In this document: in pieces, positions 21,223 through 28,829 of the stretch | Layout: each line of letters opens with the position of its first letter | How positions within the stretch are numbered: position 1 is the first letter of the stretch | Origin: Escherichia coli | GTDB lineage: Bacteria > Pseudomonadota > Gammaproteobacteria > Enterobacterales > Enterobacteriaceae | DNA: 64,000 nt | Assembly: GCF_050320075.1 (NCBI RefSeq) | Contig: NZ_CP190018.1 | Strand: one strand, 5' to 3' | Position numbers and translations under genes: made by a program | The notes under the pieces: model-generated | Databases searched by the model: none | Seen by the model: the letters and a program-made list of their open reading frames with translations, nothing else | Told to the model about the DNA's origin: nothing

Positions 21223-21485
21223 GCGTCGTACCCCCGTTTGCGTCCGGCAATGCGCCCGGCCATCCATGCGGTGACTTCAGAGTGCAGCCAGGCCACATTT
21301 TTACCGCCAAGACTCACCTGCGGCGGAAATTCCCCTTTACGGATGAGTTCATAGATGGTCGAGCGTGACAGGCCGCACAGGTGCATCACTTCCGGCAGAC
21401 GTAAAAAACGCTCCTGCGTGATGTCCGGCAGCGGCATCAGTGGCGTCACAGGGGCGGGAGACGGGGAAGAAAAAACAGCTTGCAT
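21219..21485 (-). CDS. AlpA/Vis-family small DNA-binding regulator (excision/integration control)
   Basis: 88-aa ORF; HTH signature [48 protein letters not shown]; true start could be an internal Met. Confidence 0.75.
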
Positions 21486-21764
21486 CGGGCTACCTCGTTA
21501 ATGTCCATACAGCACCGGATAAGTCCGTCCGGCTTCGGGTAGCGCTTTATTTTGTGAATATTTTCAGCAGACGCAACAGGGGGGATTTGTTCCGGCAGTC
21601 TTACAATGGCTGTGTATTTTTTGTTCATCTCCACTTAAAGTCATTTAAAGCCACTTAAAGCAATTCGTAATTTTTATAGTGAAATACAAATCGTTTTTTC
21701 TTATTCATTCCCGGCGAATTAATAAAAACAAACAGTAATAAACAGCACAAAAAGCCCATCAACG

Positions 21765-21868
21765 GGTGAACAGTGGTGAACAGACGGTGAACAGTCATTA
21801 CTGCGATTGTTCACCCTTTAACTTACTGTATTACTTATCTTTTTTATTAAGGTGAACAGAGGTGAACA
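21765..21868. promoter_or_regulatory. cluster of six P4 type-I iterons, crr- or ori-like
   Basis: GGTGAACA at 21765, 21775, 21786, 21851 and 21861 (10-11 bp phasing) plus inverted TGTTCACC at 21808-21815; between the vis-like gene and sid. Confidence 0.65.
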
Positions 21869-22038
21869 GTAAAATATAAAAAAAACAAACAGTAAGCCGG
21901 TTTTTCCTGCGACCTTTTCCTGGCTTGCCGGTCTGAGGATGAGTCTCCTGTGTCAGGGCTGGCACATCTGCAATGCGTCGTGTTGTTGTCCGGTGTACGT
22001 CACAATTTTCTTAACCTGAAGTGACGAGGAGCCGGAAA

Positions 22039-22773
22039 ATGTCTGACAACACCATCCCTGAATATCTGCAACCCGCGCTGGCACAACTGGAAAAGGCCAG
22101 AGCCGCCCATCTTGAGAACGCCCGCCTGATGGATGAGACCGTCACGGCCATTGAACGGGCAGAACAGGAAAAAAATGCGCTGGCGCAGGCCGACGGAAAC
22201 GACGCTGACGACTGGCGCACGGCCTTTCGTGCAGCCGGTGGTGTCCTGAGCGACGAGCTGAAACAGCGCCACATTGAGCGCGTGGCACGCCGGGAGCTGG
22301 TACAGGAATATGACAATCTGGCCGTGGTGCTGAATTTTGAACGTGAACGCCTGAAAGGGGCGTGTGACAGCACGGCCACCGCCTACCGGAAGGCACATCA
22401 TCACCTGCTGAGTCTGTATGCAGAGCATGAGCTGGAACACGCCCTGAATGAAACCTGTGAGGCGCTTGTCCGGGCAATGCATCTGAGCATCCAGGTACAG
22501 GAAAATCCGCTCGCCAACACCACCGGCCATCAGGGCTACGTCGCGCCGGAAAAGGCTGTCATGCAGCAGGTGAAATCATCGCTGGAGCAGAAAATTAAAC
22601 AGATGCAAATCAGCCTCACCGGCGAGCCGGTTCTCCGGCTGACCGGACTGTCAGCGGCAACACTCCCGCACATGGATTATGAGGTGGCAGGCACACCGGC
22701 ACAGCGCAAGGTGTGGCAGGACAAAATAGACCAGCAGGGAGCAGAGCTTAAGGCCAGAGGACTGCTGTCATGA
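22039..22773 (+). CDS. sid: P4 Sid-like capsid size determination (external scaffold) protein
   Basis: 244 aa from ATG 22039 (MSDNTIPEYLQPALAQLEKARAAH...), SD GAGGAG 7 nt upstream; ORF track has a GTG start at 22021. Confidence 0.85.
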   Translation: MSDNTIPEYLQPALAQLEKARAAHLENARLMDETVTAIERAEQEKNALAQADGNDADDWRTAFRAAGGVLSDELKQRHIERVARRELVQEYDNLAVVLNFERERLKGACDSTATAYRKAHHHLLSLYAEHELEHALNETCEALVRAMHLSIQVQENPLANTTGHQGYVAPEKAVMQQVKSSLEQKIKQMQISLTGEPVLRLTGLSAATLPHMDYEVAGTPAQRKVWQDKIDQQGAELKARGLLS

Positions 22774-23270
22774 TTTACTGCCCGTCGTGTGGACATGTTG
22801 CTCACACCCGTCGCGCACATTTCATGGACGATGGCACCAAGATAATGATTGCACAGTGCCGGAATATTTATTGCTCTGCGACATTTGAAGCGAGTGAAAG
22901 CTTTTTCTCTGACAGTAAAGATTCAGGAATGGAATACATTTCAGGCAAACAGAGATACCGCGATTCACTGACGTCGGCCTCCGGCAGTATGAAACGCCCG
23001 AAAAGAATGCTTGTTACCGGATATTGTTGTCGGAGATGTAAAGGCCTTGCGCTGTCAAGAACATCGCGGCGTCTGTCTCAGGAAGTCACCGAGCGTTTTT
23101 ATGTGTGCACGGATCCGGGCTGTGGTCTGGTGTTTAAAACGCTTCAGACCATCACCCGCTTCATTGTCCGCCCGGTCACGCCGGACGAACTGGCAGAAAA
23201 CCTGCATGAAAAACAGGAACTGCCGCCAGTACGGTTAAAAACACAATCATATTCGCTGCGTCTGGAATGA
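22770..23270 (+). CDS. delta: P4 Delta-like late transcription activator (tandem Ogr-type zinc fingers)
   Basis: 166 aa; two Cys4 motifs CPSCGHVAH...CRNIYCSATFEASESF and CRRCKG...CTDPGCGLVF; start overlaps sid stop (ATGA). Confidence 0.85.
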   Translation: MIYCPSCGHVAHTRRAHFMDDGTKIMIAQCRNIYCSATFEASESFFSDSKDSGMEYISGKQRYRDSLTSASGSMKRPKRMLVTGYCCRRCKGLALSRTSRRLSQEVTERFYVCTDPGCGLVFKTLQTITRFIVRPVTPDELAENLHEKQELPPVRLKTQSYSLRLE

Positions 23271-23343
23271 GGGCTGCCGGTTAACACCGGCCGTCGCCAC
23301 ACACCGTATTTTTATTCTTCAGCATGATGAGAAAGAGATAACG

Positions 23344-23916
23344 ATGGAAAGCACAGCCTTACAGCAGGCCTTTGACACCTGTCAGAATAACAAAGCAGCA
23401 TGGCTGCAACGCAAAAATGAGCTGACTGCGGCCGAACAGGAATATCTGCGGCTTCTGTCAGGAGAAGGCAGAAACGTCAGTCACCTGGACGAATTACGCA
23501 ATATTATCGAAGTCAGAAAATGGCAGGTGAATCAGGCCGCCGGTCGTTATATTCGTTCGCATGAAGCCGTTCAGCACATCAGCATCCGCGACCGGCTGAA
23601 TGATTTTATGCAGCAGCACGGCACAGTACTGGCGGCCGCACTGGCACCGGAGCTGATGGGCTACAGTGAGCTGACGGCCATTGCCCGAAACTGTGCCATA
23701 CAGCGTGCCACAGATGCCCTGCGTGAAGCCCTTCTGTCCTGGCTTGCGAAGGGTGAAAAAATTAATTATTCCGTACAGGATAGCGACATTTTAACGACCA
23801 TCGGATTCAGGCCTGACGCGGCTTCGGTGGATGACAGCCGTGAAAAATTCACCCCTGCGCAGAACATGATTTTTTCGCGCAAAAGTGCGCAACTGGCATC
23901 ACATCAGTCTGTGTAA
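23344..23916 (+). CDS. psu: P4 Psu-like polarity suppression protein
   Basis: 190-aa ORF following delta, just upstream of cos; length and order as in P4. Confidence 0.85.
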   Translation: MESTALQQAFDTCQNNKAAWLQRKNELTAAEQEYLRLLSGEGRNVSHLDELRNIIEVRKWQVNQAAGRYIRSHEAVQHISIRDRLNDFMQQHGTVLAAALAPELMGYSELTAIARNCAIQRATDALREALLSWLAKGEKINYSVQDSDILTTIGFRPDAASVDDSREKFTPAQNMIFSRKSAQLASHQSV

Positions 23917-23952
23917 AACTCCCCGAAAATCCGCCCGTTTTTACTGAAAAAA

Positions 23953-23980
23953 GCCATGCATCGATAAGGTGCATGGCTTT
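23953..23980 (+). terminator. hairpin after psu (possible terminator)
   Basis: GCCATGCA tcgataagg TGCATGGC stem-loop followed by TTT. Confidence 0.4.
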
Positions 23981-24080
23981 GCATGCGTTTTCCTGCCTCA
24001 TTTTCTGCAAACCGTGCCATTCCCGGCGCGGTCTGAGCGTGTCAGTACAACTGCATTAAAACCGCCCCGCAAAGCGGGCG

Positions 24081-24099
24081 GGCGAGGCGGGGAAAGCAC
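24081..24099. other. cos site: 19-nt P2/P4-type cohesive-end sequence
   Basis: GGCGAGGCGGGGAAAGCAC matches the P2/186/P4 cohesive-end sequence as I recall it; lies just downstream of psu. Confidence 0.7.
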
Positions 24100-24349
24100 C
24101 GCGCGCTAAACCTGATGAATAAGGAATATTTTAAAAACATTTGTGGATATGAATATTTGGGTTGTAAATGAGTGTTTTTATCTGTTTTTATGTGCTGTGA
24201 AGCAATGTTTGAGTCGATATTTTTATAAAGCTCAATAAAAATTACATTATCATTGATAAGAATGGTTGTCGGATTAACACGTTTTTAAGCTATTTATATA
24301 TAATTAAACCTCGGCAAGGTTGCTGAGGTTTAATCGATTGGTTAATTAT

Positions 24350-27076
24350 TTAGTTGATTAGGTGTGACTCAGTTGCAGAGTGACCTTTTTTTGTCCTAAC
24401 AAACTTGATAGCAAGTGTTTTTCCTCTAATGTAATTAGACCAGTTATATTTTTCTTCACCAAGGCAACTGTCCCTATGAATTAATATTTCTTTTCCATCA
24501 GAATCTCTGGCAAAAACAAATCCTTTTCCTAATGTAAGATCTGAATATATTTCTGCTATAGAATATCCATTATTTTTCCATGTGATTTGTTCGAATTCGG
24601 CAATTGTTTTAGATGAGCTAAAAGCACTCCATTTGGGGGAGGTGAATGGGTTGTTTGGTATTTTTGTTGCTCTCATTGTTGAAATGATATTAACTACTTC
24701 TTTACTTGATATCTTAAAATCTTTAGAGAACTTTGTAATGTCGGCAAGATTGCTTTCAGCAAAATCAATTACTTTTATAATGAATTGTTGAGATAGTTTA
24801 TCAATGTTGTTTTTGATCGTGTCACAAAAAAGATTTAAAGATTTAATAGCTTCGTCAGAAAGTCGATCGCTGATGTTTTCTTTTTCAAATATAAATTCCA
24901 ATATGTCGATAACTTCAGATATGTTTTTTTCTACAGACTCAGGGTTAATGTCGAAGTTATTTTCACAAGAACGCTTTAATGCGGCGACTCTAAAGTAAGC
25001 TTGCTCTTGAGGTGAATGTGAATCTTTCCATTTTTCAGTGTATTCAAGAATGTCTGGGTATTCTTTACCATAAAGATGAACACCTAAATACTCTCGCATT
25101 ATTATAGAAGACAGTACTTCGCCTGAATGCTCAACTCTGTCGAATCCAGAATCAATCAATTCCTGAGATACTTTTTGAGCCTCTATAAAATCACCAATAT
25201 CTTTATAGATATACATCAGAGTTAAGTTGTTTAGTGGATTTTCAGACTCTATGCCTATTGCTGACTTTATACAAGAAATAGCACCTAAATTATCACCCTG
25301 CTTATGTAGTATTCTGGCATATGTTCGCATAAATAGAGGATTTTTTTGATATATTTGAGCGAGTGTTTTAAAATCCTCATAAATAACATTTAATTTATCT
25401 TTGTTAACGCTTTTGTAGCCTAAAATTTTATTTGCTCTGTTAACAGCTATTTGCAAGGAGTCAGGGCTATTATTAGGGATGAATCGATAATCAAACCGAT
25501 CTATTTCTTTATCTTGTTGGAATTTTTGTAAGTGCAATATTTCAGTTCGTTGTTTTCTTGCTTTTTCAGCAATAATGTTTCTGACGGTGTTATTTCTTGG
25601 TGATGTGATTAATAGTTCTTTGATTGATTCACTTAAAGAAAACTCTTCTTCTCCCGTATTAGATGTTTTCCGGGATACTAAAGATGTGTTCAATATTTCT
25701 TTAATCGCTTTTGCTATTGAGTCGGGATCTGAATCTAAGAAATGAGTTAAAAATGATCTTGATGATGCTCCGGTGACAAACAAGCATTCAAGAATAGATA
25801 TTGCATCGTTACTTAAAACATCTAATAGATTATTAAATGAAAATGCAGCGATATCTTTTTTGGATTTTTCTATTGAGTCAGGTAAAGCCATTCCATTATA
25901 AATGGAATCTATTGTAAGCCTTATTGCTAAGGGGTTAAAATGAGTCACTTCAGTAATTCTCGTGAGTTCTTCTGGGGTTAAGTTTATTATCCCTCGTTTA
26001 TCTGAATATGATTTGGCTAGATGGAAAGCCACACCAGATTGCAATTCCTTAAGTGAAATTGGGTAAGCTCCGTCAACCATTATTCGACTAGTGACTACCA
26101 CTTTAAAATTCGAAGGAAGAGTATACTGGAAACGAATGAACTCATCAGGACCATCTCTTAATAAAGTTTCGAGATTATCGATACATAGGAGAGTGCTTTC
26201 TATATCTTGGTCGTTTATAATTTCTGAATATAGATCATCATAGTTTTCTATCTCTTCATCAGGATTAAAAAACTCCACTATTTCTTTTTTTATTTCAGAA
26301 ATGGTGTCAATGTTTTTTAACTCAGAAATACCATCAGCAGTGAGATGATGTTTCTTTAATGTTAAATAGCAAATGTTTTTGAATTTCTCATTGGCTTTTG
26401 GTGAGATGCTCAATTCTTTTAAGAAATCTAAAATTAAAGCGGTTTTTCCTACGCCTCCAGGAGCTACAACCGCAATGAATGGAGTTCGATCGTTATTTAT
26501 TGCTGATAATAACTCTTTCTTTTCACCTTTACGGCCTATAAGGCTGGTAATGTCGTGATCAAATTTATCAGGCAGGTTGTTATTAATTTCCCAGCTAATA
26601 GTAGAAAACCATTCTTCTGGAGGTGCTTTTAATTGACCAGTAGATGCGGAATAATAAGCATCCTTCACACTTTTTAAACCAAGTACTTCTATATATGGAT
26701 GTGAGGCTATAGCTGCAGCGCAATGCCAGTAATGCTCATGGAATGGTCGGGTTGGATGACTAATTTGATTTCTTATAAAAAATAAATCAACAGCTGTACA
26801 GAACTCTTTCAGTTCTGACAGTTTATCATAGTCAGATGTACCCTTAGCTAATTGCAGGGCATAATTGAAAATTTCACCGATATAACTTGCTTGGATAAGA
26901 GTTTGCGTATTGAAAACGGGACCTCTCCCACGCTCCAGTTCTAGTTTAGAACGAGGTTCGAAATGTTCGCTTAACCTACTTTTACCTCCTGCATCCTCAC
27001 TAACAACATACGCCGCCAATGCTTTTTCTAAGGCATAAACTATCATACTAGTTTTCGTATCAAGATATTCAGACAT
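24350..27076 (-). CDS. STAND/NB-ARC-type P-loop NTPase with N-terminal Rx4H domain, helical repeats and C-terminal cold-shock-like OB-fold segment; candidate anti-phage defence cargo
   Basis: 908-aa ORF with AAGGA SD 6 nt upstream; Walker A IAVVAPGGVGKT (nt 26441-26458), Walker B TLLCIDNLE, sensor-I-like KVVVTSR, GLPL-like HFNPLAI; AT-rich; sits between cos/psu and int. Confidence 0.85.
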   Translation of the reverse strand: MSEYLDTKTSMIVYALEKALAAYVVSEDAGGKSRLSEHFEPRSKLELERGRGPVFNTQTLIQASYIGEIFNYALQLAKGTSDYDKLSELKEFCTAVDLFFIRNQISHPTRPFHEHYWHCAAAIASHPYIEVLGLKSVKDAYYSASTGQLKAPPEEWFSTISWEINNNLPDKFDHDITSLIGRKGEKKELLSAINNDRTPFIAVVAPGGVGKTALILDFLKELSISPKANEKFKNICYLTLKKHHLTADGISELKNIDTISEIKKEIVEFFNPDEEIENYDDLYSEIINDQDIESTLLCIDNLETLLRDGPDEFIRFQYTLPSNFKVVVTSRIMVDGAYPISLKELQSGVAFHLAKSYSDKRGIINLTPEELTRITEVTHFNPLAIRLTIDSIYNGMALPDSIEKSKKDIAAFSFNNLLDVLSNDAISILECLFVTGASSRSFLTHFLDSDPDSIAKAIKEILNTSLVSRKTSNTGEEEFSLSESIKELLITSPRNNTVRNIIAEKARKQRTEILHLQKFQQDKEIDRFDYRFIPNNSPDSLQIAVNRANKILGYKSVNKDKLNVIYEDFKTLAQIYQKNPLFMRTYARILHKQGDNLGAISCIKSAIGIESENPLNNLTLMYIYKDIGDFIEAQKVSQELIDSGFDRVEHSGEVLSSIIMREYLGVHLYGKEYPDILEYTEKWKDSHSPQEQAYFRVAALKRSCENNFDINPESVEKNISEVIDILEFIFEKENISDRLSDEAIKSLNLFCDTIKNNIDKLSQQFIIKVIDFAESNLADITKFSKDFKISSKEVVNIISTMRATKIPNNPFTSPKWSAFSSSKTIAEFEQITWKNNGYSIAEIYSDLTLGKGFVFARDSDGKEILIHRDSCLGEEKYNWSNYIRGKTLAIKFVRTKKGHSATESHLIN

Positions 27077-27094
27077 ATATGATCCTTGTTCAAA

Positions 27095-28282
27095 TTAAAG
27101 AGTGGTTTGCAATCCCCACCAATTCATTAACTCTATACGTTGTTCTAAATAGGTACTTCTATTGTAAGCTTTTCGAACCTCATTCCTCTCGGAATGCGCC
27201 AATGCTGCTTCAATAACATCAGGATTAAATTCTGCTTCGTTCATTGCCGTACTGGCAATTGATCTTAGTCCATGGGCCACTAACTTACCGCCATAACCTA
27301 TTCTCTTCAAGGCAGCGTTTGCCGTCTGACTGTTCATCGGCTGTTTTGGATCGTTTCTGCTCGGGAAAATATGTTCACGGTGACCACTGATAGGCTTCAT
27401 TACTTCCAAAATACCTAAAGCCTGAGGTGACAAAGGGACAATGTGTTCACGTTTAGCCTTCATTCGTTCGGCGGGAATCGTCCAGAGTTTGGCCTCGAGA
27501 TCGATCTCGACCCACCGAGCACCAGAAGCCTCAGAAGGGCGCACTAGGGTCAGGAGCTGCCACTCGATAAGACAGCGAGTCGGAACAGACAGATTCGACA
27601 TTACCAGAGAACGCATCAGCTTAGGTAATTCTTCGGGTCGTAGCGTGGGCATATTCTGCTTTTTGGGTTTCTCAAATGCCATTCCAACACCTGATGCTGG
27701 ATTTGCATCAATTAGACCAGTGTTTACGGCATAAATCATTATCTCGTTAATGCGCTGTACCAGACGACGTACCGTCTCTAGCGCGCCACGTGCTTTGATT
27801 GGTTCGAGGGTTTCAACAAGTGTTCGGGCTTTGATTTGCTGAACAGGGAGCTCACCGATGGCAGGTAATACATCTTTTTCCAGGGAACGCCAAATGTCTT
27901 TCGCGTAATCAGGGGTAACGCTTTTGCTTTTTATCTGGAACCAGTTGGTCGCAACAGTCGAAAAAATACTGTCTAGAGCTATCTGTTGTTGTTCTTCGAT
28001 AAATTCAGCTTGAACTTGTGGGTCTATACCATTAGCCAACAAAGCAAGGTAATCCGCTCTTAACCGTCGAGCATCAGCAAGTGAAAGGGCGGGGAAAGCA
28101 CCAAGCCCCATCATTGTCCGCTGTTTTGTTGCTGGACGTTGATAACGGAAACGCCACAACTTCTTACCGTTCGTTTTAACGAGCAGAAAAAGGCCATCGC
28201 CATCATGTAACGTTAGATCCTTTTCTAACGCTTTAGCGCGCAGAACTTCGGTGTTGGTCAGGGGGCGTGTTGTTCTTGCCAC
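27095..28282 (-). CDS. int: tyrosine site-specific integrase (P4/CP4-57 IntA type), ssrA-specific
   Basis: 395-aa ORF with GTG start; catalytic motifs AHGLRSIA and KAYNRSTYLE; next to the ssrA 3' end. Confidence 0.9.
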   Translation of the reverse strand: MARTTRPLTNTEVLRAKALEKDLTLHDGDGLFLLVKTNGKKLWRFRYQRPATKQRTMMGLGAFPALSLADARRLRADYLALLANGIDPQVQAEFIEEQQQIALDSIFSTVATNWFQIKSKSVTPDYAKDIWRSLEKDVLPAIGELPVQQIKARTLVETLEPIKARGALETVRRLVQRINEIMIYAVNTGLIDANPASGVGMAFEKPKKQNMPTLRPEELPKLMRSLVMSNLSVPTRCLIEWQLLTLVRPSEASGARWVEIDLEAKLWTIPAERMKAKREHIVPLSPQALGILEVMKPISGHREHIFPSRNDPKQPMNSQTANAALKRIGYGGKLVAHGLRSIASTAMNEAEFNPDVIEAALAHSERNEVRKAYNRSTYLEQRIELMNWWGLQTTL

Positions 28283-28304
28283 TGTGGCCGCTCCTTCATG
28301 AATT

Positions 28305-28352
28305 GGTATACGTGTTTAGGTATACATCCTACCGTATACCTAAACGTATACC
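28305..28352. promoter_or_regulatory. four GTATACC/GGTATAC repeats in an imperfect inverted arrangement upstream of int (candidate arm-type sites / int promoter region)
   Basis: GGTATAC at 28305 and 28319, GTATACC at 28334 and 28346. Confidence 0.45.
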
Positions 28353-28466
28353 AATAATCACTGGATTTAGCTGGATATCCTCGGACAATGGTAGACACAA
28401 AAAAGCCCGCAGAGCTTGTGCCATGCGGGCTTTCAGGATTTCTCCGGACGTATCCGGAAGAGCAAG

Positions 28467-28481
28467 TGGTGGAGCTGGCGG
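28467..28481. repeat. attL-side direct repeat (ssrA 3' terminus)
   Basis: TGGTGGAGCTGGCGG, identical to 16764-16778. Confidence 0.75.
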
Positions 28482-28829
28482 GAGTTGAACCCGCGTCCGA
28501 AATTCCTACGTCCTCGGTACTACATGCTTAGTCAGTCTTTACATTCGCTTGCCAGCTGCGGACGGACACGCCACTAACAAACTAGCCTGATTAAGTTTTA
28601 ACGCTTCAACCCCAGGCAGGGCTTCCACGCGATCTCTTTTGGGTTTGACCTCTCTTGATCCCCGTCCTAAGAGCGGAGGCTAGGGAGAGAGGGCTCTAAG
28701 CAGGTTATTAAGCTGCTAAAGCGTAGTTTTCGTCGTTTGCGACTATTTTTTGCGGCTTTTTACGAGGCCAACCGCCCCTCGGCATGCACCTTGGGTTTCG
28801 CAAATCCCGTCGAATCCAGAATCAGCCCC
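28467..28829 (-). ncRNA. ssrA: tmRNA (SsrA), 363 nt
   Basis: Reverse complement reads GGGGCTGATTCTGGATTCGACGGGATTTGCGAAACCCAAGGTGCATGCC...GGTTCAACTCCCGCCAGCTCCACCA. Confidence 0.95.

What the first reader, a model, noticed from the sequence alone, without database searches (positions are those of the whole stretch)
27095..28282. Integrase module is ssrA-targeting, unlike canonical P4 (mosaic satellite)
The core replication and late genes look P4-like, but the integrase sits at ssrA and is 395 aa with a GTG start. As I recall, P4 itself integrates at a tRNA-Leu gene with a longer integrase. The int-att module has probably been exchanged.
Basis: partly seen in the sequence, partly recalled or inferred. 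Interest (0 to 1): 0.3.

Follow-up and report, generated by a model that had tools for sequence, protein, structure and literature searches.

The report
P4-like satellite integrated at ssrA
A phage satellite almost identical to P4 carries a different integrase and attachment site that place it at the tmRNA gene instead of a leucine tRNA gene, and this kind of module swap is real here but already known to be common.

Summary
ORF 27095-28282 (- strand) is an intact 395-aa, GTG-start tyrosine integrase. It starts 185 bp downstream of the 3' end of ssrA (28467-28829). It is 36.6% identical to P4 Int (439 aa, leuX) and 61.5% to CP4-57 IntA.

The interpretation also holds. Window 16922-24112 is 98.5% identical in DNA to P4 (alpha through psu and cos). 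The cargo gene, int and both att arms have no DNA similarity to P4. A 23-bp repeat of the ssrA 3' end (16764-16786 and 28467-28489, 11,703 bp apart) bounds a P4-sized element. GGTATACG arm sites sit next to both repeats.

It is not unusual. Of 72 P4-like loci that carry an integrase, 37 have this ssrA-type one and 12 the P4 type. Integrase and alpha distances are uncorrelated (Spearman 0.04). Published work already reports frequent integrase exchange in P4-like satellites and their presence at the tmRNA hotspot.

One side observation may be new. Phased TCC(R) arrays sit at base-identical offsets in the P' arm here and in P4, and similar arrays lie upstream of int in the other classes. They may be Vis (excisionase) boxes that let the cassettes be swapped.

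Verdict: real, correctly read, already known, low interest.

The parts
28467..28829 (-). ssrA (tmRNA) gene; its 3' end is the integration target
   Evidence: ARAGORN; Rfam RF00023 at 292.8 bits
28467..28489 (-). attL core: the 3'-terminal 23 nt of ssrA, TTCAACTCCCGCCAGCTCCACCA. The 15 nt at 28467-28481 are identical to attR.
   Evidence: (D10). The 15-mer occurs only twice in 64 kb against 0 expected.
28435..28458 (-). Phased TCC array A (TCCGGATACGTCCGGAGAAATCCT). It starts 9 bp after the core, the same offset as P4 4046-4069. Inferred RDF (Vis) box.
   Evidence: Read; P4 counterpart; conserved in ssrA-type loci. The function is inferred.
28395..28432 (-). Element-supplied hairpin plus T-run that replaces the native ssrA terminator, which is now at the attR side near 16625-16660
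   Evidence: similarity to the native terminator region
28362..28385 (-). Phased TCCR array B (TCCGAGGATATCCAGCTAAATCCA), 82 bp from the core end as in P4 3973-3996. Inferred RDF (Vis) box.
   Evidence: Only exact match to TCCR-N6-TCCR-N6-TCCR in 64 kb (expected 0.07)
28305..28352 (.). P' arm-type integrase sites. Two direct GGTATACG copies at 28333-28340 and 28345-28352 (-), 12 bp apart. Two inverted copies at 28305-28312 and 28319-28325 (+).
   Evidence: All copies change together to GGTACACG in the most divergent relatives.
27095..28282 (-). Integrase: 395 aa, GTG start, IntA/PRK09692-type tyrosine recombinase
24350..27076 (-). 908-aa cargo gene in the psu-int hotspot: a STAND-like P-loop NTPase of unknown function
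   Evidence: Listed as 'hypothetical' WP_089620504 in Rousset 2022 Table S1.
24081..24112 (+). cos (GGCGAGGCGGGGAAAGCAC...) and the last 31 bp of P4 homology. The left mosaic junction is at 24112/24113.
22039..23916 (+). sid (22039-22773), delta (22770-23270) and psu (23344-23916): 99.2%, 97.6% and 96.8% aa identity to P4
21219..21485 (-). vis / orf88 (AlpA-family excisionase and regulator), 98.9% identical to P4 Vis
20875..21160 (-). P4 immunity RNA region (C4/CI RNA, isrK, c4-a1b1 targets)
   Evidence: Rfam
17091..20630 (-). epsilon (20343-20630), orf151 (19895-20350), orf106 (19439-19759) and alpha primase-helicase (17091-19424): 97-100% aa identity to P4
16922..17045 (+). A single crr 120-bp repeat. 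P4 and the closest relatives have two, so 180 bp are missing here. The right mosaic junction with P4 is at 16921/16922.
16840..16859 (-). P arm-type integrase sites: two direct GGTATACG copies 12 bp apart, about 55-58 bp 5' of the core as in P4
   Evidence: (D9)
16764..16786 (-). attR core: TTCAAACTCCGCCAGCTCCACCA. It lies 161 bp from the end of ypjA, the same position as the psaA remnant at the end of CP4-57 in K-12.

Best explanation
This is an 11.7-kb P4-like phage satellite integrated at the 3' end of ssrA. Its replication, immunity and helper-hijacking genes are nearly identical to P4. The block between cos and crr is a different cassette: a 908-aa cargo gene, an IntA-type tyrosine integrase, and that integrase's own attP.

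The attP consists of the ssrA 3'-end core, GGTATACG arm sites, and two phased TCC arrays. The integrase recombines the attP core with the last ~15-23 nt of ssrA. This regenerates an intact ssrA at attL, followed by an element-borne terminator, and leaves a partial copy at attR next to ypjA.

Shown here: the gene content, the mosaic junctions, the att repeats, the arm-site repeats and the intact catalytic motifs.

Inferred: that Int is active, that GGTATACG is the site bound by its arm-binding domain, and that the core-encoded Vis drives excision through the TCC arrays.

The cassette is one of at least four interchangeable int-att cassettes (ssrA, leuX, selC, tRNA-Thr) that circulate among P4-like cores.
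For: Mosaic map. Window 16922-24112 is 98.5% identical in DNA to P4 4469-11624 plus 1-31. No similarity exists elsewhere in the element. The core proteins are 97-100% identical to P4.

Integrase identity. 36.6% to P4 Int and 61.5% to IntA. PRK09692 scores 581 against a cutoff of 434.

Domains and catalytic motifs are intact.

att sites. A 23-bp repeat (20 of 23 positions identical, 15 exact) lies at 16764-16786 and 28467-28489, 11,703 bp apart. P4 is 11,624 bp.

Arm sites. All five exact GGTATACG copies in 64 kb lie within 160 bp of the two cores (expected 1.0). They are 12 bp apart, and the first P' site is 115 bp from the core end, as in P4. In divergent relatives all copies co-vary to GGTACACG.

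Same attB as CP4-57 in K-12.

Population sample. In 80 P4-like loci, every ssrA-type locus with enough flank has the ssrA 15-mer core (28467-28481 in the window); wherever I compared the coordinates it lies 184-196 bp beyond the int start (185 bp in the window, and in nearly all of them), except in L040, where int is interrupted. Four integrase clusters are spread over two core lineages. The Spearman correlation of int distance against alpha distance is 0.043.

E. coli genomes. Three divergent ssrA-type integrases (76-82% DNA identity) all sit in P4-like satellites between ssrA and ypjA.

Literature. PMC8628076 reports that P4-like integrases are often exchanged (rho 0.01-0.16). PMC10121019 reports P4-like satellites in the tmRNA hotspot #9.
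Against: No experiment shows that this Int is active or that the element excises. One of the two crr repeats needed in cis for P4 replication is missing, which could impair replication. The attR copy differs from attL at 3 of 23 positions, so only 15 bp are available for strand exchange. The direction of the exchange (which lineage swapped) is not resolved. The locus sample from IMG/VR is not an unbiased census.
Confidence: 0.9

Rival explanations
1. Two separate elements lie side by side. The integrase and cargo belong to an independent ssrA island, and a P4-like element that lost its own integrase sits next to it. On this reading it is a tandem array, not a mosaic.
For: Tandem arrays at ssrA do occur. 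In W619 and ST70 a lambdoid prophage with its own integrase sits between ssrA and the P4-like element. Several IMG/VR loci have the ssrA core next to int but no full tmRNA there.
Against: Only two copies of the ssrA core exist in the window, and they bracket the whole 11.7 kb. The GGTATACG arm sites next to int recur beyond alpha, at the far end of the element. The total length matches P4's packaging size. There is no third att copy and no second integrase between psu and int. The same arrangement recurs in 37 loci.
Confidence: 0.03
2. Nothing was exchanged in this lineage. The ssrA-type cassette is the usual, long-standing partner of P4-like cores, and laboratory P4 is the lineage that acquired a minority leuX cassette.
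For: ssrA-type integrases were the most frequent class (37 of 72) and occur with both the P4-core and the divergent-core lineages. P4-type integrases were 12 of 72, and 11 of those 12 sit with the P4-core lineage.
Against: All four cassette classes are found with alpha that is 99% identical to P4. Swaps are therefore recent and recurrent in every direction, and polarity for this one pair cannot be inferred. The int gene here also shows an internal identity gradient, from 99% down to 65% against the common ssrA-type allele. That gradient shows recent recombination in this element too. This rival changes the direction of the exchange, not the fact of it.
Confidence: 0.3
3. The element is a decaying cryptic remnant. 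On this reading the integrase is a relic with no current function, as is often assumed for CP4-57-like islands.
For: One crr repeat is deleted. The exact int allele plus cargo is rare, found in 7 of 5,426 complete E. coli genomes.
Against: All seven P4 core components and int are full length with no frameshifts. The catalytic motifs are intact. cos and the att cores are intact. The element is 99.93% identical over 12 kb to the one in Ec-U3, an unrelated isolate, which suggests recent mobility.
Confidence: 0.08

Closest known systems
Satellite phage P4 (X51522)
   Same: 98.5% DNA identity over 7.2 kb, from crr and alpha through psu and cos. The gene order is the same, the size is 11.7 against 11.6 kb, and the C4/CI immunity RNA is shared. 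The P' arm architecture of attP matches to the base: array A at +9, array B at +82 and the first P' arm site at +115 from the core 3' end, with arm sites 12 bp apart.
   Different: Int is only 36.6% identical and shorter (395 against 439 aa). The core is the ssrA 3' end, not the leuX 3' end. The arm motif is GGTATAC, not GGGGGCA. gop, beta and cII are replaced by one 908-aa NTPase gene. There is one crr repeat instead of two.
CP4-57 cryptic prophage of E. coli K-12 (IntA/SlpA, AlpA)
   Same: The attB is the same: the ssrA 3' end, with the distal copy 161 bp from ypjA. Int is 61.5% identical over residues 1-390 without gaps, and both pass NCBIfam PRK09692. The RDF belongs to the AlpA/Vis family. 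The attR variants are similar (TTCA[A/G]ACTCCGCCAGC...).
   Different: CP4-57 is about 22 kb and has no sid, delta, psu, epsilon or P4-type alpha. Its arm motif is AGGCCCA/GGACCA rather than GGTATAC, and its first P' arm site is about 20 bp further from the core.
P4-like satellites at the tmRNA hotspot (hotspot #9 of Hochhauser et al. 2023; the P4-like family of Moura de Sousa and Rocha 2021)
   Same: This element is one of them. It has the full SatelliteFinder-type component set (int, psu, delta, sid, alpA, epsilon, alpha), the variable cargo sits between psu/cos and int, and the integrase phylogeny is uncoupled from the core (PMC8628076, PMC10121019, PMC9122126).
   Different: Nothing categorical. 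This particular int allele with the 908-aa cargo is rare (7 of 5,426 genomes), and the next closest int alleles are about 87% identical in DNA.

Membership tests
Tyrosine recombinase, P4-integrase architecture (Arm-DNA-bind_3 + Phage_int_M + Phage_integrase) | Three-domain architecture | tested here: met
   Pfam E-values of 3.8e-23, 1.3e-26 and 7.6e-31, all above the gathering scores. The N-terminal and central domains match solved CP4-like integrase domains.
Tyrosine recombinase, P4-integrase architecture (Arm-DNA-bind_3 + Phage_int_M + Phage_integrase) | Catalytic R...K...HxxR...H...Y residues | tested here: met
   LTLVR248, K275AK277REHIVPL, H337GLR340 and LAH363SERNEVRKAY373 align with the same motifs in P4 Int. 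The assignment is by motif, not by structure.
Tyrosine recombinase, P4-integrase architecture (Arm-DNA-bind_3 + Phage_int_M + Phage_integrase) | Site-specific recombination activity | not testable with these tools
   Needs excision or integration assays.
IntA / CP4-57-type integrase subgroup (NCBIfam PRK09692) | Score above the curated cutoff of the family model | tested here: met
   581.3 bits against a cutoff of 434. IntA itself scores 918 and P4 Int 274, which is below the cutoff.
IntA / CP4-57-type integrase subgroup (NCBIfam PRK09692) | Integration at the 3' end of ssrA, with the int gene adjacent | tested here: met
   Int starts 185 bp from the ssrA 3' end. The ssrA-end repeat lies at the far end of the element, and the attB flank is the same as in K-12.
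P4 Int orthologue (leuX-specific) | Close sequence relationship to P4 Int | tested here: not met
   36.6% identity. True P4-type integrases in satellites are 91-100% identical to P4 Int and form a separate cluster.
P4 Int orthologue (leuX-specific) | attP core equal to the tRNA-Leu (leuX) 3' end, and GGGGGCA arm repeats | tested here: not met
   The core is absent with up to 3 mismatches. The arm motif here is GGTATAC.
P4-like phage satellite (components as in SatelliteFinder / Moura de Sousa and Rocha) | Co-located int, psu, delta, sid, alpA/vis, epsilon and alpha, in P4 order | tested here: met
   All seven are present, full length and in P4 order.
P4-like phage satellite (components as in SatelliteFinder / Moura de Sousa and Rocha) | cos site, and a size compatible with the small P2-derived capsid | tested here: met
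   The cos region at 24081-24112 matches the first 31 nt of P4 at 96.9%. The att-to-att distance is 11,703 bp against 11,624 bp for P4.
P4-like phage satellite (components as in SatelliteFinder / Moura de Sousa and Rocha) | Mobilisation by a P2-like helper | not testable with these tools
   Needs helper infection or transduction experiments.

The most novel reading that the evidence does not exclude
Every int-att cassette used by P4-like satellites (ssrA, leuX, selC and tRNA-Thr types, and apparently CP4-57) carries phased TCC(R) arrays: three or four direct repeats one helical turn apart. They lie between the att core and int. In P4 and in this element the offsets from the core are identical to the base (+9 and +82), although the two share no detectable DNA similarity by blastn and use different integrase arm motifs.

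Vis is 98-100% identical across all cassette classes. The arrays would then be universal Vis/AlpA (excisionase) boxes. They would make the cassettes plug-and-play, so that one core-encoded RDF controls four or more unrelated integrases.
Probability: 0.35. Interest if true: 0.3.

Novelty: already known. Interest (0 to 1): 0.13.

Why it matters
It matters little as a discovery. That P4-like satellites swap integrases and occupy the tmRNA site is published, and this very cargo protein is already listed in a P4-hotspot catalogue.

It is useful as a clean worked example. The cassette boundaries are mapped to the base, at cos+31 on one side and the start of crr on the other. The attP architecture is superimposable on P4's even though the core and arm specificity differ.

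It also corrects a bias. Laboratory P4's leuX integrase is not the typical one. In this sample the ssrA type was three times as frequent.

If the phased TCC arrays prove to be Vis boxes, they would explain how a conserved excisionase stays compatible with interchangeable integrases.

Tried and rejected
1. cos-like 15-mer. GGCGGGGAAAGCACC occurs at cos (24086-24100) and again inside int (28088-28102) (D18). It lies close to a step in the int identity gradient. I considered a pseudo-cos that flanks the swapped block. I rejected it because the 15-mer encodes GAFPA and only 6 of about 36 related int alleles keep it exactly, with free synonymous variation in the rest. It is most likely chance.

2. 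Vis-type boxes at the P4 late promoters. No TCCR pair at 10-bp spacing exists anywhere in P4 outside the P' arm. The late-promoter binding of Vis therefore cannot be used to support the box assignment.

3. Cargo function. PADLOC gave only a P-loop-level hit (E = 2.6e-4). The PDB sequence search found nothing. Pfam gave only sub-threshold AAA_16 and nSTAND1 hits. The function stays unknown.

4. Literature not held. Williams 2003, 'Traffic at the tmRNA gene' (PMC142792), is not in the library. Cali et al. 2004 was not among the papers found by the library searches and I did not read it, so the footprinted Vis sites in P4 attP could not be compared with the arrays.

5. A non-satellite donor of the ssrA-type integrase in E. 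coli. Three sampled divergent alleles (76-82% DNA identity) were all inside P4-like satellites, so no donor was identified. The nearest phage-borne relatives are Klebsiella phages at about 60% aa identity.

6. Tools not used. I did not run structure prediction, the large protein searches or a metagenome scan. The question was settled without them.

Full report
**1. What is there**

It lies at 27095..28282 on the - strand, is 395 aa long and starts with GTG. An AAGGAG Shine-Dalgarno sequence lies 8 nt upstream. NCBI's pipeline calls the same 395-aa ORF in the near-identical element of E. coli Ec-U3.

Pfam finds the three domains of a P4-family tyrosine integrase: Arm-DNA-bind_3, Phage_int_M and Phage_integrase. 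The catalytic motifs are present and align with those of P4 Int: R248, K275/277, H337xxR340, H363 and Y373. The GTG start is not an oddity. At the homologous position, 28 of 35 related integrase genes start with GTG, and their lengths run from 395 to 408 aa.

ssrA (tmRNA) lies at 28467..28829 on the same strand, with smpB upstream. The integrase therefore starts 185 bp downstream of the ssrA 3' end.

**2. The mosaic, mapped**

I compared the element with the P4 genome (X51522) by blastn.

- Window 16922-24080 matches P4 4469-11624 at 98.5% identity, and 24081-24112 matches P4 1-31. This is one continuous block running through cos.
- The proteins in that block are 97-100% identical to P4. Alpha is 99.2%, orf106 100%, orf151 97.4%, epsilon 99%, Vis/orf88 98.9%, Sid 99.2%, Delta 97.6% and Psu 96.8%.
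- Rfam also finds the P4 immunity RNA (C4) and its targets.
- Window 24113-28466 and 16787-16921 have no DNA similarity to P4.

In the circular form, P4's gop-beta-cII-int-attP segment is therefore replaced. The replacement is a 908-aa NTPase gene, a different integrase and a different attP.

The integrase is 36.6% identical to P4 Int and 61.5% identical, without gaps over residues 1-390, to IntA of CP4-57. It passes the curated NCBIfam IntA model at 581 bits against a cutoff of 434, and P4 Int does not at 274 bits.

**3. Attachment sites**

The last 23 nt of ssrA (28467-28489) recur at 16764-16786. Twenty of 23 positions are identical, and the 3'-terminal 15 nt are exact. That 15-mer occurs nowhere else in the window.

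- The two copies are 11,703 bp apart, and P4 is 11,624 bp.
- The distal copy lies 161 bp from the end of ypjA. The psaA remnant that closes CP4-57 in K-12 lies at exactly that position, and the flank beyond it is the same sequence. This element and CP4-57 therefore use the same attB.
- The P4 leuX core is absent from the window even with three mismatches.
- All five exact copies of GGTATACG in 64 kb lie within 160 bp of the two cores, against about 1.0 expected. Two direct copies 12 bp apart lie on the alpha side. Two direct copies and two inverted copies (one of them inexact) lie next to int.
- P4's annotated arm repeats (motif GGGGGCA) have the same layout. The first P' site is 115 bp from the core end in both elements, and the P sites lie about 57 bp before the core. 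CP4-57 has a third motif, AGGCCCA.
- In 18 distinct ssrA-type attL sequences from other genomes the motif is conserved. In the two most divergent sequence types (L058 and L079) the four copies that remain recognisable have changed together to GGTACACG; the proximal inverted copy is not recognisable there. That is the pattern expected of recognition sites for the arm-binding domain of the cognate integrase.
- The element also supplies a hairpin plus T-run just after the regenerated ssrA 3' end.

**4. How it most likely works**

Int binds the GGTATACG arm sites and the core. It exchanges strands within the 15-bp identity between attP and the ssrA 3' end. Integration leaves an intact ssrA followed by an element-borne terminator at attL, and a partial copy at attR.

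The anatomy is shown by the sequence. Catalytic activity and arm-site binding are inferred. Excision presumably needs the core-encoded Vis, as in P4. That point comes from the literature (Cali et al. 2004, as cited in PMC2603039, PMC7286903 and PMC11963761) and was not tested here.

**5. Is it unusual? No**

I fetched 80 P4-like loci through Psu and classified their integrases.

| Integrase class | Loci (of 72 with an integrase) | Identity |
|---|---|---|
| ssrA type | 37 | 81-95% to the window Int |
| P4/leuX type | 12 | 91-100% to P4 Int |
| Other | 23 | 37-40% to all three references |

- The 'other' group includes a cluster next to tRNA-Sec (selC) and a cluster next to tRNA-Thr.
- In the ssrA-type loci with enough flank, the ssrA 15-mer core lies 184-196 bp beyond the int start wherever I compared the coordinates (185 bp here and in nearly all of them). 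L040, whose int is interrupted, is the exception.
- The ssrA type occurs with both core lineages: Psu about 97% with alpha 99%, and Psu about 61% with alpha about 85%.
- For 44 elements with complete int and alpha, the Spearman correlation between integrase and alpha distances is 0.043, with a Mantel p of about 0.14. The published values are 0.01-0.16 (PMC8628076).
- In 5,426 complete E. coli genomes, ssrA-type int DNA is found in 433 and P4-type int DNA in 719.
- Three divergent ssrA-type alleles that I opened all lie in P4-like satellites between ssrA and ypjA. Two of them sit in tandem with a lambdoid prophage.
- Hochhauser et al. state outright that the tmRNA hotspot holds P4-like satellites (PMC10121019).

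**6. Finer structure of the swap**

The exact int allele is rare. Seven genomes have it at 99% identity or more, and the next best is 87.5%. Seven is also the number of genomes that carry the 908-aa cargo.

Against the common ssrA-type alleles, identity falls along the gene. It is 99% at the attL arm and the 5' end of int, and 65-70% at the 3' end next to the cargo. At least one recombination breakpoint therefore lies inside int. The cargo and the 3' part of int travelled together, which fits the published picture of a cos-adjacent hotspot (PMC9122126, and bioRxiv 10.64898/2026.02.27.708500).

The cargo protein WP_089620504 is already listed as 'hypothetical' in Rousset et al., Table S1. It has no PADLOC or PDB match.

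**7. A side observation that may be new**

The pattern TCCR-N6-TCCR-N6-TCCR occurs once in the 64-kb window, at 28362-28385 in the P' arm, against 0.07 expected. A looser copy lies at 28435-28458. P4 has two exact copies, both between the attP core and int, and no TCCR pair at this spacing anywhere else.

- The offsets from the core end are identical in P4 and here: +9, +82, and then +115 for the first arm site.
- In 35 P4-like loci with sequence upstream of int there are 31 exact arrays. All lie within 200 nt upstream of int on the int strand, and none lies in the remaining roughly 1 Mb. They occur in the ssrA, selC and Thr classes.
- Vis is 98-100% identical across all integrase classes of the P4-core lineage.
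- Direct repeats one helical turn apart are typical of excisionase sites (PMC7498355 abstract).

I therefore propose that the arrays are Vis/AlpA boxes carried by every cassette. This is an inference. I could not read the 2004 footprinting paper, and the arrays could bind another factor.

**8. Verdict**

The thing itself is a well-documented kind of element: a P4-like satellite with an IntA-type cassette at the tmRNA hotspot. Novelty is 'already known' and interest is low.

Noticed in passing
window 28362-28385 and 28435-28458 (-); P4 (L001) 3973-3996 and 4046-4069: Phased TCC(R) triplet arrays at 10-bp spacing lie between the att core and int. The offsets from the core are base-identical in P4 and here (+9 and +82). 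In about 1 Mb of P4-like loci, all 31 exact arrays lie within 200 nt upstream of int, across the ssrA, selC and tRNA-Thr classes. They are possibly Vis/AlpA excisionase boxes.
   Followed up: partly
window 24350-27076 (-): A 908-aa cargo gene sits in the psu-int hotspot. It has a STAND-like P-loop NTPase core at about residues 179-331, long unannotated N- and C-terminal regions, and no PADLOC or PDB match. It is present in only 7 of 5,426 complete E. coli genomes and is listed as 'hypothetical' in Rousset 2022 Table S1. It is a candidate uncharacterised anti-phage gene.
   Followed up: partly
window 16922-17045: Only one 120-bp crr repeat is present. P4 and the 99.9%-identical element in Ec-U3 have two repeats separated by 60 bp, so this copy has lost 180 bp. 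The cause is probably recombination between the repeats or an assembly collapse. The effect on replication is unknown.
   Followed up: partly
window 27095-28282 (-): There is an identity gradient inside int against the common ssrA-type alleles: 99% at the 5' end and attL arm, falling to 65-70% at the 3' end next to the cargo. This implies a recombination breakpoint inside the integrase gene.
   Followed up: partly
window 24086-24100 and 28088-28102 (+): An exact 15-mer of the cos core (GGCGGGGAAAGCACC) is repeated inside int, where it encodes GAFPA. It is not conserved at synonymous sites in related alleles, so it is probably chance.
   Followed up: yes
L072 and L081 (about 185-200 nt upstream of int): Two ssrA-type satellite loci carry CP4-57-like sequence immediately after the att core and then satellite-type sequence from the terminator onward. 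They are hybrids between the CP4-57 and satellite att regions.
   Followed up: no
L085 (W619) and L086 (ST70): These show tandem occupancy of ssrA. A lambdoid prophage with its own integrase lies between ssrA and the P4-like satellite. In W619 the satellite is decayed, with int, psu and alpha all pseudogenes.
   Followed up: no
window 8808-8883 (+): ARAGORN calls this tRNA Met (anticodon CAT), but the identical locus in relatives is annotated tRNA-Ile. It is probably an ileX/ileY-type lysidine-modified tRNA.
   Followed up: no
window 9640-11094 (+): Two adjacent ORFs (115 aa and 365 aa) correspond to the ypjCB family gene. That gene is annotated as a pseudogene with an internal stop in Ec-U3 and is intact in W619.
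   Followed up: no
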